Below are positions 9,477 through 61,876 of a stretch of 64,000 bases of DNA, one piece after another. The position numbers and the translations under genes are program-made. Location of the stretch: the IMG/VR virus record IMGVR_UViG_3300028394_000037; one strand, written 5' to 3'. This DNA comes from a virus. The notes below the pieces were generated by a model. That model saw only the letters and a program-made list of their open reading frames with translations, was not told the origin of the DNA and ran no database searches. How positions within the stretch are numbered: the first letter of the stretch is position 1; each line of letters opens with the position of its first letter.

Positions 9477-9549
9477 TAGGAGTGGTGGGATTTGAACCCA
9501 CGCTGTATGGATTTTAAGTCCACTGCCTCTTCCGCTGGGCTACACTCCC
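9477..9549 (-). tRNA. tRNA-Leu(UAA), short variable arm, CCA not encoded
   Basis: Acceptor GGGAGTG/CACTCCT, anticodon arm GTGGA-CTTAAAA-TCCAT, T-arm GTGGG-TTCAAAT-CCCAC, discriminator A. Confidence 0.9.
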
Positions 9550-40547: not shown

Positions 40548-40665
40548 TCTTAAAAGGGTAAGTAGTAGTTCAGGAGGTGCTGAACGGTAAAAGTATTCCT
40601 ATGCAACCCTCCTGCATAGGTATGAGGACGGATTTTACTTGCCTAGTCCTGGTGCGGCAAGGTGA
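40548..40665 (-). ncRNA. Structured psbA 5' leader (PhotoRC-II-like motif)
   Basis: Hairpins CTTGCC/GGCAAG, CCTATGCA/TGCATAGG (GGAGGG loop) and GTTCAG/CTGAAC (loop with CCTC complementary to the GAGG loop). Confidence 0.6.
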
Positions 40666-40690
40666 AGAAAAGTTACATTCCTTAACACCT

Positions 40691-59075: not shown

Positions 59076-59909
59076 TTATATCATATCACAAAGAATTTGT
59101 AAACCATTATGAAAATTGGTATCACAAGAAAATCCAAGTGATTTCAATTTATCATTATTCAATGTCATATTTTTGACTTGTATGAATTCTTGATCTGGCG
59201 GTATGAGTACATCTATAATTTCACTTGAACTATTAACAATTGATTTTGCATTTTCTATAATTTTTCTAAAAGATAAAGATTCTCCAGAAGATATATTATA
59301 AACTTCATTAATATTTCCAGAGTCTATAATCAATTTTATAGATTTACATATGTCTTCTACAAACATATAGTCTTTCAAAAAATTTCCACCATCATAAAGT
59401 TTGATTTGTTTATCTTCCTTTAAGAGTCTTACCATATAAGCAAGAACATTCTTTCCTGGGGAAATTGTTTTATCCAAACCATAAACATTACCAATTCTAA
59501 AAATTCTATATTTAATTTTAAAAGTTTCACAAAAAGAAATTAAAAGTTGCTCTGCACACCTTTTAGTAATTGAATAGAATCCAGTTGGATTGCAACAATC
59601 AGTTTCCTTTGCATCTATTATATCATTTCCATAAACAAAACCAGAACTTATAAAATTTATTGTTACATCTCTATTTTTACAATTAGAAAGAAAGTCAACA
59701 AATAATTTTAAATTAGTATCAATATCCACATGAACATCTTTAAAAACATTTTGATTTGTTGTGGTACTTATAAAATAAAGAACTTCATTCGTATGAAAGT
59801 TTTTACTATCTCTTGGAATAAGAGTAACATTTTCTTTGTACATTCTTGAAAATGTTCCACCAATAAATCCAGTACCACCAAAGACAGATATTTTATTCAT
59901 ATTTTTCAT
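59076..59909 (-). CDS. NAD-dependent epimerase/dehydratase (WcaG-like)
   Basis: GGTGFIG; SSG.VYG; YSITK (YxxxK); R..NVYG. Confidence 0.85.
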   Translation of the reverse strand: MKNMNKISVFGGTGFIGGTFSRMYKENVTLIPRDSKNFHTNEVLYFISTTTNQNVFKDVHVDIDTNLKLFVDFLSNCKNRDVTINFISSGFVYGNDIIDAKETDCCNPTGFYSITKRCAEQLLISFCETFKIKYRIFRIGNVYGLDKTISPGKNVLAYMVRLLKEDKQIKLYDGGNFLKDYMFVEDICKSIKLIIDSGNINEVYNISSGESLSFRKIIENAKSIVNSSSEIIDVLIPPDQEFIQVKNMTLNNDKLKSLGFSCDTNFHNGLQILCDMI

Positions 59910-59976
59910 ATTCAACAAAAAATTTTTTTACTTTATCCTTTAATTTAGTTTCAATTACATTCGTATCATTGATTTT

Positions 59977-60011
59977 ATTATAGCAAAAAAGGAGAGTTTA
60001 TGCAACTCTCC
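59977..60011 (-). promoter_or_regulatory. Fused terminator/promoter cassette variant driving the glycosylation island
   Basis: GGAGAGTT-GCATA-AACTCTCC-TTTTTT with TTGCAT-17-TATAAT. Confidence 0.6.
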
Positions 60012-60015
60012 CATT

Positions 60016-60117
60016 AGGTCTTTCAGGCTCGCCACTTGCTCTTTGACTAGAAGCAAGAAACTAGGCGGGAGAGAGTCCCATCCGCACCAACAATTCTTTA
60101 AGGAAATTGTAAACCTA
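60016..60117 (-). ncRNA. wcaG-like RNA motif
   Basis: Two pseudoknot-like units each ending in UGGYG (TTGGTGCGG and GTGGCGAGCC), upstream of an NDP-sugar epimerase, the context described for the cyanophage wcaG motif. Confidence 0.6.
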
Positions 60118-60315
60118 TTTACAACTCACAAAAGAATTAATTTTCTCCGCAAGTTTTTCAATATTCTCATAAGAAGGATATTGAGGATACTCCGTAGTAT
60201 CATCCGGATTTAGATCTTTCAATCTATCCACTGTAGCAAAACTAGTATGAAATTCTTGATCAGCAAGAGTTTGTGCTTGCCTAAAGATTTCAAAACGAAG
60301 TTCGTAAGGTGTCAT
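60115..60315 (-). CDS. Small hypothetical phage protein (MTPYELRFEI...)
   Basis: Strong AAGGAG RBS; (AC)n leader; YP....I...A.....FV C-terminus. Confidence 0.8.
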   Translation of the reverse strand: MTPYELRFEIFRQAQTLADQEFHTSFATVDRLKDLNPDDTTEYPQYPSYENIEKLAEKINSFVSCK

Positions 60316-60372
60316 TTGTTTTCTCCTTTAATGTGTGTGTTTGTGTGTAACCATAGGGTCATAATTGACTCC

Positions 60373-60444
60373 ACCAGTACTTTTAAAGTCTCTCCGTGAC
60401 TTGCAGGGGTCCCCGACCAGTACTTTTTAAGTCTCTCCGTGACT
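60373..60444 (-). repeat. Tandem 29-bp repeat (1 mismatch, 14-nt spacer), likely structured RNA
   Basis: AGTCACGGAGAGACTT(A/T)AAAAGTACTGGT at 60416-60444 and 60373-60401. Confidence 0.85.
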
Positions 60445-60527
60445 ATTGGTCCCAATCAAGAATATCATTAGGATCCATATAACAAGGATCATCGCTCAAC
60501 CATTTCGGATTGCTAAAGGAGCCAGAC

Positions 60528-60674
60528 TTACTTATTATTCCACATTTTTTCCATTGGGTCAACACCAGTTCTCATTACTTCACAAGCTCTCTTGTAGAAC
60601 ATATTTTTAGTGTTTCCTGATGCCTCCATAGTATCCTTAATCTTTTGCCAGTTTTCCCGAGTTCTGTCGTCCAT
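60528..60674 (-). CDS. Small hypothetical protein (48 aa, MDDRTRENWQKIKDTME.SGNT...)
   Basis: TAATG overlap with the upstream gene. Confidence 0.65.
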   Translation of the reverse strand: MDDRTRENWQKIKDTMEASGNTKNMFYKRACEVMRTGVDPMEKMWNNK

Positions 60675-60925
60675 TAACGTACCTCAAAATCTAACTTACG
60701 AATTTTACGATTTGCTCTTGCGTGTTGCCAAGCAAGTTCTTCTTCAGTAAAATAAGATTTTTTTTCTTGTGGACGCATTGAATTTAGCATCACAACACTC
60801 TTCAAATCAACTGCTGTTATTTTTTCACCAACAACAGTAGTCATATTTGTACATCCACAAGAACGTGTTTGTGTAGGATGACTGGATAATTCTGTATTAC
60901 AGAGTTTACAACGTACTTCAACCAT
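60674..60925 (-). CDS. Hypothetical Cys-motif protein
   Basis: CKLC...CGC.N motif. Confidence 0.7.
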   Translation of the reverse strand: MVEVRCKLCNTELSSHPTQTRSCGCTNMTTVVGEKITAVDLKSVVMLNSMRPQEKKSYFTEEELAWQHARANRKIRKLDFEVR

Positions 60926-60932
60926 TTTATTT

Positions 60933-61367
60933 CTATTGTAAATGTGATCTTAATTGCCAAACAAATTTTCCGTGAGATTCCATCAAATCTTGAACCAAAT
61001 TAGCAGTTGCGTATTGATTTTGTGTTTCAGATTCTTTGGAAATTTCAACAAATATCTCACATATCTTTTTATTATCTTCTAAAAGTTCTGAAAGCATTTT
61101 ATCTGCTGTAGTTGAACTTGATGCTTCTTGAACTTGAGTCACTTCAAGCATTCTTGAAAGAGAACTTAAAGGTTTAATATTTAAGTATCTCATATGCTCA
61201 GATAATCTGTCAATCTCTTCAAACATAGTTTCATATTGACCACCAAAAAGTTGATGAAGTTGAGTAAAATTTTCACCAACAACATTCCAATGAAATGCCC
61301 AAGTTTTATGAAAGATGACAAAAAGTGAAGATTGAGCATCACTTAAAAGTTTGAAAAGTTTTTCCAT
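60933..61367 (-). CDS. dps: Dps/ferritin-like DNA protection protein
   Basis: HWNV.G..F..LH..F...Y......D...E ferroxidase motif; H.K..W.L; TATAAATA at 61382-61389. Confidence 0.9.
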   Translation of the reverse strand: MEKLFKLLSDAQSSLFVIFHKTWAFHWNVVGENFTQLHQLFGGQYETMFEEIDRLSEHMRYLNIKPLSSLSRMLEVTQVQEASSSTTADKMLSELLEDNKKICEIFVEISKESETQNQYATANLVQDLMESHGKFVWQLRSHLQ

Positions 61368-61399
61368 CAAAGTTTTTTATGTATTTATATGAAAGAAAG

Positions 61400-61471
61400 A
61401 GCGGATGATCGGACTTGAACCGACGACATCTAACTTGGAAGGATAGCGTTCTACCACTGAACTACATCCGC
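61400..61471 (-). tRNA. tRNA-Gly(UCC), CCA not encoded
   Basis: Acceptor GCGGATG/CATCCGC, D-arm GTTC/GAAC, anticodon loop CTTCCAA, T-arm GTCGG-TTCAAGT-CCGAT, discriminator U. Confidence 0.92.
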
Positions 61472-61876
61472 ACGATTTTCTTTTGGACAATCAGGAACCC
61501 AAGAACCACATATTCTCATTTCACCACCTAATAGTTTTTGAGCATTGCTCTTATCAGGTGCTTTCTCTGAAAAATATGATGGACTTATTCTAACACTCCT
61601 ATCGTCCCCTGTCAAGTCCTCATAATCTTTGATTGCCTTGTCTACATCTCTATGAACTCTGCGGTCCAAAAGTTGTGGAGTATTTATGAGTATATCATTC
61701 AAATCAGTTTGTGGAAAGTATTTTCTCTGAACCTCATCAATAAAATCGTAAATGTTTTCTTCTGGAATATAAGTACATTGTGATACTCCCGTCACCAAAG
61801 AAGTGAATACAACTCCTATTACGGCATATCTAAAAATAGTCTTTGGTTTCTTTCCAAATTGAAAATTAAATTCCAT
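61451..61876 (-). CDS. Hypothetical membrane-anchored protein
   Basis: N-terminal TM segment; C...VPDC near the C-terminus; stop lies inside tRNA-Gly. Confidence 0.65.
   Translation of the reverse strand: MEFNFQFGKKPKTIFRYAVIGVVFTSLVTGVSQCTYIPEENIYDFIDEVQRKYFPQTDLNDILINTPQLLDRRVHRDVDKAIKDYEDLTGDDRSVRISPSYFSEKAPDKSNAQKLLGGEMRICGSWVPDCPKENRADVVQW

What the first reader, a model, noticed from the sequence alone, without database searches (positions are those of the whole stretch)
60016..60450. RNA-module locus: tandem hairpin repeats, a small ORF with an (AC)n leader, and double-pseudoknot wcaG-like RNA
Seen, on the minus strand in order: two 29-nt repeats (AGTC-ACGGAGA-GACT hairpin, A-run, GTACTGGT); the leader ACACACAAACACACACATTAAAGGAG; a 66-aa ORF; then, overlapping its stop, two H-type pseudoknot-like units (AGG/CCT with ACAATT/AATTGT; CTAG/CTAG with CTTGCT/AGCAAG). 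All four RNA units end in TGGY. The 5' TAGGTTT can alternatively pair with the 3' AGACCTA, and a terminator follows. Known: wcaG is an orphan cyanophage RNA motif with no established ligand. Inference: this may be an RNA-protein system, in which the ORF binds the repeats or its own leader, or an array of decoy/antitoxin-like RNAs resembling pseudoknot repeats of type III toxin-antitoxin systems, rather than a simple riboswitch for the epimerase, which has its own downstream promoter.
Basis: partly seen in the sequence, partly recalled or inferred. Interest (0 to 1): 0.72.

Follow-up and report, generated by a model that had tools for sequence, protein, structure and literature searches.

The report
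Modular pseudoknot RNA array around wcaG
This stretch of a marine cyanophage holds the known but unexplained wcaG RNA plus two copies of an uncatalogued small pseudoknot module of the same design, so wcaG is the tail of a chain of independent modules; the small gene lying between the modules is an unrelated insert.

Summary
The 3' element is a full-length Rfam wcaG RNA (101.9 bits) and is already known.

The two upstream 29-nt repeats are not plain hairpins. They are copies of a ~45-nt H-type pseudoknot module: a 4-bp hairpin, a loop with invariant GG, an A-rich linker, invariant C-UGGU-S, then a G/C hairpin. About 115 of the 119 IMG/VR contigs that matched a module-b search pattern carry it, as do phages S-SM2, Bellamy and S-SCSM1. 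Compensatory changes support both the hairpin and a loop-to-linker pair (C:G 83, U:A 40, other 2). No Rfam family matched it.

The two halves of wcaG follow the same design, and its second pseudoknot covaries strongly. Module number and order vary between phages: a-b-c-d, a-b-ORF-c-d as here, a-ORF-b-c-d, b-a and others.

The 66-aa gene always travels with its CA-rich leader. It is acidic, and only 17 of 80 loci of its family carry the modules, so an ORF-RNA pairing is not supported.

The terminator after wcaG holds a -35-like box in its loop and TATAAT 17 nt later in 61 of 86 loci. That is a PeSL-type terminator/promoter, so the epimerase has its own promoter.

The function is still unknown. 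My preferred reading is autonomous binding modules on an early transcript. This scan has noted the same module chain before on other DNA.

The parts
60443..60565 (-). Upstream small ORF (40 aa). Its C-terminal motif (..DPCY..) recurs before the array in S-SM2 and Bellamy. Its TAG stop (60445..60443) overlaps the first base pairs of module a.
60406..60444 (-). Module a. Hairpin AGUC-ACGGAGA-GACU, A-rich linker UAAAAAGUA, CUGGUC, then the G/C hairpin GGGGACCCC. Loop base C (position 2) pairs with the G four bases before UGGU, which makes a pseudoknot.
   Evidence: R1 model, 46.1 bits
60356..60401 (-). Module b. It has the same pseudoknot core as module a (28 of 29 bases identical), followed by CUGGUG and the hairpin GGAGUC-AAUUAU-GACCC with a bulged A.
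   Evidence: 45.8 bits
60316..60348 (-). CA-rich unstructured leader with the GGAG Shine-Dalgarno sequence. It belongs to the ORF cassette and not to the RNA array.
   Evidence: a leader is present in all 60 unique loci of the ORF family, with or without modules
60115..60315 (-). 66-aa gene (MTPYELRFEIF...FVS.K). It is a conserved acidic helical-hairpin protein of unknown function, inserted between modules b and c.
60065..60118 (-). Module c, the 5' half of wcaG. AGG (60116..60114) pairs with the loop CCU (60103..60101). Then come 7-bp hairpin P1 (60110..60090), UGGUG (60089..60085) and hairpin P2 with a bulged A.
60021..60064 (-). Module d, the 3' half of wcaG. CUAG (60064..60061) pairs with the loop CUAG (60050..60047). 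Then come 7-bp hairpin P3 (60057..60035), UGGCG (60034..60030) and the AGCCUGAAA tail.
59977..60012 (-). Composite terminator/promoter. Terminator stem GGGAGAG/CUCUCC plus a U-run. A -35-like TTGCAT (60005..60000) sits in the loop, and TATAAT (59982..59977) follows exactly 17 nt later.
   Evidence: PeSL description in PMC2839356
59076..59918 (-). First gene of the sugar island, an NAD-dependent epimerase/dehydratase (PF01370). It is followed by DUF3431, a DegT aminotransferase and a GDP-mannose-dehydratase-like gene.

Best explanation
The locus is one arrangement of a modular RNA array found in T4-like cyanophages.

Anatomy (shown). Four autonomous modules share one design: an H-type pseudoknot, then an invariant single-stranded (C)UGGY(S), then a G-rich hairpin. 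Modules a and b are a type not in Rfam. In them a 4-bp hairpin comes first, and its loop, around an invariant GG, pairs with the end of an A-rich linker. Modules c and d together make up the catalogued wcaG motif. In them a short 5' strand pairs into the loop of a 7-bp hairpin.

The array is the untranslated part of a multi-gene transcript. It ends at a terminator that has a sigma-70-type promoter built into it, so the epimerase operon downstream has its own start. The 66-aa gene and its CA-rich leader form a separate small-gene cassette. Elsewhere that cassette sits between tRNA genes; here it has landed at the b/c module boundary.

Function (inferred, about 0.3). Each module is an independent binding site for one common partner, read through the invariant unpaired GG and UGGY. 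The chain would then act as a multivalent scaffold or decoy RNA made early in infection. It would not be a single riboswitch aptamer for the epimerase.
For: wcaG is identified at 101.9 bits.

The module a/b core occurs in about 115 of 119 pattern-matched IMG/VR contigs and in three isolate genomes.

In 126 aligned cores, the loop-to-linker pair at columns 8:27 is C:G 83, U:A 40, other 2, and this pair played no part in selecting the sequences. Columns 11:26 give G:C 23, A:U 20, U:A 3 and none unpaired. Three of the four hairpin pairs covary. GG and C-UGGU are invariant.

In 78 wcaG sequences, P1, P2 and P3 covary and the second pseudoknot is 98% paired with U:A/C:G/A:U and G:C/U:A/A:U variants. 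The first pseudoknot shows class covariation (AGG:CCU, GAG:CUC, AAAG:CUUU).

Intermediate forms link the two module types: hairpin loop GUCGG or GUCGU pairs with CCGAC or ACGAC directly before UGGUG.

The census of 114 arrays gives a-b-c-d 25, a-b-gap-c-d 17, a-gap-b-c-d 13, b-c-d 7, b-a 6 and others. The gaps hold at least five unrelated small-gene families. In S-SCSM1 about 2 kb, holding two annotated enzyme genes, lies between the two module hits.

Each genome tested has a single locus with two a/b-type modules.

The terminator/promoter pair TTGCAT or TTGACA, 17 nt, TATAAT occurs in 61 of 86 loci while the stems covary.

The ORF family is mostly without modules.
Against: No transcript ends, binding partner or ligand are known, so the functional part is inference only.

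Some modules sit where a cis-regulator would sit. In about 16 loci the G-rich hairpin of module a contains the only Shine-Dalgarno-like GGGAG and ends 2 nt before an AUG. Module d is usually followed by a terminator.

The hairpin stem of modules a/b was a selection criterion, so its 100% pairing is partly by construction.

Every array locus was found through a module-b pattern, so the census is biased towards arrays that contain b.

Single-sequence folding of the a-b region is no more stable than shuffles (z = -0.29).
Confidence: 0.55

Rival explanations
1. Classical cis-acting riboswitch array. Each module is a small-molecule aptamer and the hairpin after it is the expression platform. In module a that hairpin would sequester the ribosome-binding site; in module d it is the terminator. 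The array would tune read-through into the sugar island and translation of the small genes.
For: wcaG was proposed as a riboswitch candidate because it lies before exopolysaccharide genes (PMC2864571). Invariant unpaired bases inside compact pseudoknots with an A-rich third loop are typical of small pseudoknot aptamers (my own knowledge). About 16 loci have UGGUC-GGGAG..CCCC-UU-AUG. 72 of 86 module d copies are followed by a run of at least 5 T.
Against: Module number and order vary freely, and genes are inserted between modules. No conserved alternative pairing links a module to the terminator: the only candidate helix is 60% paired, as in the controls. A conserved promoter lies between wcaG and the gene it is supposed to control. 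As far as the searches here show, no ligand has been reported since 2010.
Confidence: 0.2
2. Processing or stability punctuation. The modules are self-folding spacers in tRNA and small-gene transcripts. They would guide or block ribonucleases and so define or protect RNA ends, much as tRNAs do in the same clusters.
For: 12 of 114 arrays begin within about 5 nt of the 3' end of a tRNA gene, and 7 are followed by a tRNA 36-46 nt later. The ORF cassette that follows module b here follows a tRNA 3' end directly in most other loci, so a module and a tRNA occupy equivalent positions.
Against: Most arrays, including this one (nearest tRNA about 950 nt upstream), are not next to a tRNA. A simple nuclease barrier would not need invariant single-stranded GG and UGGY.
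Confidence: 0.15
3. The 66-aa protein binds the repeats or its own leader.
For: The gene lies between the modules here and in 17 of the 80 retrieved loci of its family. Its stop codon overlaps the start of wcaG.
Against: 63 of 80 family loci had no module hit within the 1.2-kb flanks retrieved. Most arrays have other genes or none at that place. The protein is acidic (pI 4.6, charge -5.4). It is a two-helix hairpin with no Pfam, PHROG or fold match.
Confidence: 0.04
4. Antitoxin-like decoy. The pseudoknot repeats mimic the RNA antitoxin of a host type III toxin-antitoxin or abortive-infection system and neutralise its nuclease.
For: The units are tandem pseudoknots with A-rich linkers in a lytic phage. 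Phage-borne pseudo-ToxI repeats are a known escape route (my own knowledge). The module core is essentially absent from prokaryote genomes: 2 MAG contigs among the representative genomes of 185,579 species.
Against: No toxin gene follows the array. The units differ from each other and vary in order. No host counterpart of the repeat was found, whereas a mimic should resemble a host antitoxin.
Confidence: 0.06

Closest known systems
wcaG RNA motif (Rfam RF01761; Weinberg et al. 2010, PMC2864571)
   Same: Window 60118..60021 is a full-length member at 101.9 bits. It has the three hairpins and the usual setting: a T4-like cyanophage, ahead of nucleotide-sugar genes.
   Different: The Rfam model covers only modules c and d. 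Modules a and b upstream, the shared module design, the free shuffling of modules and the promoter built into the terminator are not mentioned in the passages I read.
PeSL, composite promoter-early stem-loop cassettes of T4-type phages (Arbiol et al. 2010, PMC2839356; Comeau et al. 2014, PMC4122927)
   Same: A sigma-70-like -35/-10 pair with a terminator stem-loop placed between or over the boxes. It lies between small variable genes. In coliphages such cassettes are linked to modular shuffling.
   Different: PeSLs were described in phages of enterobacteria, Vibrio and Aeromonas. Here the same layout follows wcaG in cyanophages, with the -35 box in the loop and a fixed 17-nt spacer. Promoter and terminator activity were not tested.
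ToxI-type RNA antitoxins (type III toxin-antitoxin systems)
   Same: Tandem small pseudoknot-forming RNA units ahead of a terminator.
   Different: There is no adjacent toxin gene, the units are heterogeneous, and there is no evidence of processing.
T-box antiterminator bulge, a UGGN element that pairs with the NCCA 3' end of tRNA
   Same: An invariant single-stranded UGGY lies between two helices in every module (UGGU in a, b, c; UGGC in d).
   Different: There is no Stem I, no specifier and no competing terminator helix. The resemblance is a 4-nt motif only.

Membership tests
wcaG RNA (RF01761) | Covariance-model score at or above the gathering score (42 bits) over the whole model | tested here: met
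   101.9 bits, model positions 1-98 of 98, E = 1.9e-18
wcaG RNA (RF01761) | Three hairpins kept by compensatory changes | tested here: met
   P1 96.8%, P2 92.5% and P3 99.8% paired. 6, 2 and 5 of their pairs change on both sides.
wcaG RNA (RF01761) | Cyanophage or marine setting ahead of exopolysaccharide / nucleotide-sugar genes | tested here: met
   The best DNA matches are all Synechococcus phages. An epimerase, DegT and a GDP-mannose-dehydratase-like gene lie downstream.
Riboswitch (cis-acting, metabolite-sensing) | Conserved alternative pairing that links the aptamer to the terminator or ribosome-binding site | tested here: not met
   The only candidate (UAGGUUU/AGACCUA) is 60% paired against 39-55% in the slid controls. 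Terminator stems covary with no matching partner inside wcaG.
Riboswitch (cis-acting, metabolite-sensing) | Specific binding of a small-molecule ligand | not testable with these tools
   No ligand is reported in the papers found.
Type III toxin-antitoxin RNA antitoxin | Repeat array directly followed by its endoribonuclease toxin gene | tested here: not met
   Downstream lie the 66-aa protein with no family match, then an epimerase.
Type III toxin-antitoxin RNA antitoxin | Near-identical tandem units processed to unit length | tested here: inconclusive
   In this window the two cores are 28 of 29 bases identical. Across loci the a and b cores differ, and c and d are a different type. Processing cannot be tested here.
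PeSL terminator/promoter cassette | Sigma-70-like -35 and -10 boxes with a stem-loop terminator between or over them, in an intergenic position | tested here: met
   Window: TTGCAT, 17 nt, TATAAT around the terminator. 61 of 86 loci have the pair, 59 of them with a 17-nt spacer. Activity was not tested.
CsrA/Rsm-type protein sponge RNA | Several free GGA motifs in hairpin loops, plus a CsrA-family protein in phage or host | tested here: inconclusive
   The loops read nYGG(A/G/U)nn, but loop bases 2 and 5 are engaged in pseudoknot pairs. There is no CsrA (PF02599) in the window's own 107.8-kb record. The host was not searched.
T-box-like tRNA 3'-end binding | Single-stranded UGGN that pairs with the tRNA NCCA end, together with a tRNA-body recognition element | not tested
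   UGGU/UGGC is invariant. No Stem I-like element was seen, and no Rfam T-box match was found.

The most novel reading that the evidence does not exclude
wcaG is not a riboswitch. It is the 3' part of a multivalent, trans-acting cyanophage RNA. Its interchangeable pseudoknot modules each present an invariant single-stranded UGGY (and GG) to capture one common host partner early in infection. The most concrete candidate is the NCCA 3' end of tRNAs; the alternative is a host RNA-binding protein.
Probability: 0.2. Interest if true: 0.8.

Novelty: new variant of a known kind. Interest (0 to 1): 0.55.

Why it matters
wcaG has been an orphan riboswitch candidate since 2010, and it has been modelled as one compact 98-nt fold that controls the gene behind it.

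Three results here change what should be tested. First, wcaG is two members of a larger family of autonomous pseudoknot modules, and other members (a, b) lie upstream. Second, modules are reshuffled and genes are dropped between them. Third, a conserved promoter separates wcaG from its presumed target gene.

The experiments this points to are searches for a partner of a single ~45-nt module, transcript-end mapping, and tests of the invariant GG/UGGY. A ligand screen on the 98-nt element alone is less likely to succeed.

The results also give a clean seed alignment (126 cores) for a new RNA family. They extend PeSL-type terminator/promoter cassettes to cyanophages.

Tried and rejected
A permissive Rfam scan (E up to 10) of 59900-60700 and of three isolate loci found only wcaG for this region. 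The other rows were weak chance hits: snoR101, freshwater-2 (on the Shine-Dalgarno stretch only), mir-2996 and ceN47. There was no manA match.

Single-sequence folding of the a-b region gave z = -0.29 and a fold unrelated to the conserved one. It is uninformative because pseudoknots are not modelled. The wcaG plus terminator stretch gave z = -2.05.

The closing helix UAGGUUU/AGACCUA is not conserved.

P2-loop CUCUCCC is complementary to the terminator 5' arm GGGAGAG in this window, but not in other loci, so I rejected it as an antiterminator.

The consensus promoter scan of 59800-61500 found 10 sites against 6.1 +/- 2.9 in shuffles, which is not informative. It missed TTGCAT-17-TATAAT because TTGCAT matches only 3 of 6 positions of TTGACA.

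The ORF protein has no Pfam or PHROG family. Its AlphaFold model is confident (pLDDT 92) but is a plain two-helix hairpin with no fold match (best E = 2.2).

CsrA is absent from the window's record.

The module core pattern in the prokaryote genome collection hit only two short MAG contigs, which are probably mis-binned phage DNA.

A guanidine-II-like ACGR loop and a preQ1-I-like fold were considered from memory. I dropped them because loop base 2 covaries with the linker and no Rfam model matched.

Full report
WHAT IS THERE

On the minus strand the window reads, in order, as follows.
- A 40-aa ORF whose TAG stop lies at 60445..60443.
- Module a (60444..60406).
- Module b (60401..60356).
- A CA-rich leader with GGAG (60348..60316).
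- A 66-aa ORF (60315..60115).
- The wcaG RNA (60118..60021).
- An intrinsic terminator (60012..59985).
- An epimerase gene (from 59918).

Rfam calls 60118..60021 a full-length wcaG RNA at 101.9 bits, against a gathering score of 42. The two 29-nt repeats differ at one base and never arise in shuffles. The window is part of a 107.8-kb IMG/VR virus record. Its best DNA matches are all Synechococcus myoviruses.

THE REPEATS ARE MEMBERS OF A WIDESPREAD MODULE

The stretch holding the repeats has homologues upstream of wcaG in phages S-SM2 and Bellamy. In S-SCSM1 one copy is fused directly to the 3' half of wcaG and is annotated there as 'wcaG', although it scores only 37 bits, below the threshold.

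All but about four show the full module.

I aligned 126 distinct cores (A1). The invariant positions are the closing C-G pair, the loop GG, two linker A's and C-UGGU.

Counting pairs on A1 gave these results.
- Three of the four pairs of the 4-bp hairpin change on both sides (A:U/C:G/U:A, G:C/A:U, U:A/A:U/C:G). Its 100% pairing is partly by construction, because I required a stem when extracting the units.
- The loop-to-linker pair at columns 8:27 played no part in the selection. It reads C:G 83, U:A 40, other 2.
- In the long-linker class, columns 11:26 read G:C 23, A:U 20, U:A 3, none unpaired.
- Slid controls fall to 20-34% paired.

The unit is therefore an H-type pseudoknot. The invariant GG is looped out between two pseudoknot pairs, the third loop is A-rich, and the second stem abuts UGGU.

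No Rfam family matches it at E up to 10. I found no description of it in the wcaG literature that I could read.

wcaG IS TWO MODULES OF THE SAME DESIGN

On 78 wcaG sequences (A2) P1, P2 and P3 covary.

The first pseudoknot (AGG with loop CCU) could not be counted by column because the loop alignment shifts. A direct test gave class covariation (AGG:CCU, GAG:CUC, AAAG:CUUU), and 8 of 1000 shuffles reached the observed helix length. That is moderate support.

Both wcaG halves thus read: 5' strand, hairpin whose loop pairs with that strand, UGGYG, G-rich hairpin or tail. Topologically this matches a/b: stem A, stem B, then UGGY.

Variant first halves bridge the two types. A 4-bp hairpin whose loop GUCGG (or GUCGU) pairs with CCGAC (or ACGAC) lies directly before UGGUG.

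The alternative closing helix UAGGUUU/AGACCUA is not conserved: 60% paired against 39-55% in the slid controls.

THE MODULES ARE AUTONOMOUS AND RESHUFFLED

Among 114 distinct arrays, all found through module b (a stated bias), the orders are as follows.
- a-b-c-d: 25
- a-b-gap-c-d (this window's order): 17
- a-gap-b-c-d: 13
- b-c-d: 7
- b-a: 6
- many minor forms, including b-d and b alone

The gaps hold at least five unrelated small-gene families.
- This window's MTPYELRFEIF family.
- An MA(A/T)KG..SKYDVEVE coiled-coil family, as in S-SM2 and Bellamy.
- A 78-aa protein that looks like a membrane protein.
- Two further families.

In S-SCSM1 about 2 kb, holding a carbamoyltransferase gene and a mannose-6-phosphate isomerase gene, lies between the two module hits.

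A covariance model of the core (R1) finds exactly two copies, in one locus, in the window's record and in each of three complete phage genomes. The core pattern is essentially absent from the representative genomes of 185,579 prokaryote species: it hit two short MAG contigs only.

THE ORF AND ITS LEADER ARE A SEPARATE CASSETTE

The 66-aa protein has 194 relatives in IMG/VR and 79 protein clusters. All are unnamed, and none has a Pfam or PHROG family.

Its N-terminus (TPYELRF.IF) and C-terminus (FVS) are invariant. AlphaFold gives a confident two-helix hairpin (pLDDT 92.4) with no fold match. The protein is acidic (pI 4.6, charge -5.4).

Among 80 loci retrieved through the protein alone, only 17 carry R1 modules. 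The CA-rich leader is present in all. In most of the module-free loci I inspected, the leader starts right at the 3' end of a tRNA gene, and the ORF is followed by a hairpin and another tRNA.

The leader therefore belongs to the gene and not to the RNA array. The gene is a small cassette of phage tRNA regions that here sits at the b/c boundary. The junctions keep a short duplicated piece of the start of module c: UAUGGUU before the leader and UAGGUUU at the stop.

THE TERMINATOR CARRIES A PROMOTER

After module d the terminator stems covary between loci, but the loop keeps TTGCAT (40 loci) or TTGACA (15). TATAAT (47 loci) or a near variant follows, in 61 of 86 distinct loci and with a 17-nt spacer in 59 of those. 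Further loci have TTTACA in the same place. The window has TTGCAT (60005..60000), 17 nt, then TATAAT (59982..59977).

This is the layout described as PeSL, a composite early promoter plus stem-loop terminator, in other T4-type phages. There it is linked to shuffling of small genes (PMC2839356 and PMC4122927).

If this promoter is active, epimerase mRNA made from it lacks wcaG, and wcaG is the 3' end of the upstream transcript.

In a few loci module d is instead followed by a G/C hairpin and a tRNA.

HOW IT MOST LIKELY WORKS

Shown: the module structure, its conservation, its autonomy, and the transcription signals at the sequence level.

Inferred: the function. Three things fit repeated binding sites for one partner better than one metabolite-sensing fold.
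- The invariant unpaired bases (GG, UGGY).
- The variable number and order of modules.
- The lack of any conserved switch helix.

My preferred reading (about 0.3) is a multivalent scaffold or decoy on an early transcript.

The rivals are these.
- A cis-acting riboswitch array (0.2). It is helped by about 16 loci where the hairpin of module a holds the only GGGAG and ends 2 nt before an AUG.
- Processing or stability punctuation in tRNA and small-gene transcripts (0.15). 12 of 114 arrays start within about 5 nt of a tRNA end.
- An antitoxin-like decoy (0.06).
- The ORF-binding idea (0.04).

The motif is indeed invariant (UGGU in a, b, c; UGGC in d), but I did not test the idea.

NOVELTY

wcaG itself is known. 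The a/b module, the common design, the shuffling and the embedded promoter are not in Rfam or in the papers I could read. This scan has noted the same module chain before on other genomes. I rate the finding a new variant of a known kind.

Noticed in passing
window 40585-40675 (-): Rfam PhotoRC-II RNA at 53.9 bits (gathering score 39). This is another orphan cyanophage cis-regulatory motif, usually found ahead of psbA.
   Followed up: no
window 61400-61471 (-) and 9477-9549 (-): Two phage tRNA genes (69.5 and 63.2 bits). By my reading the first has anticodon UCC (Gly) and discriminator U. It lies about 950 nt upstream of the array.
   Followed up: partly
window 60933-61370 (-): A 145-aa ORF that looks Dps/ferritin-like by eye (..HWNVVG..F..LH..F..). 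It lies between the tRNA and the small-ORF block. I did not search it against any library.
   Followed up: no
window 60534-60562 (-): A promoter-like site, TTGACC-17-AATAAT with an upstream TG (10 of 12 matches), about 90 nt before module a. It could start the transcript that carries the array. The scan as a whole was not above shuffles.
   Followed up: no
L130-L202 (loci of the ORF family without modules): The CA-leader/ORF cassette usually lies between tRNA genes and is followed by a conserved hairpin (GUGGGGUGGCAACACCCCCG, then UUAGUAUUCC) directly before the next tRNA. This looks like a second repeated RNA element of phage tRNA clusters.
   Followed up: no
L018, L028, L038, L101, L116 (b-a arrays): These arrays have no wcaG. 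Module a is followed at once by an ORF start inside its G-rich stretch (UGGUC GGGAU.. AUG). A conserved ORF and a tRNA lie about 270 nt upstream.
   Followed up: partly
L205 and L206 (MAG contigs JAYPLH010000030.1 and NHGE01000021.1): The module core occurs in 10-14-kb contigs binned as Neomarinimicrobiota and Euryarchaeota. These are probably cyanophage contigs that were mis-binned.
   Followed up: no
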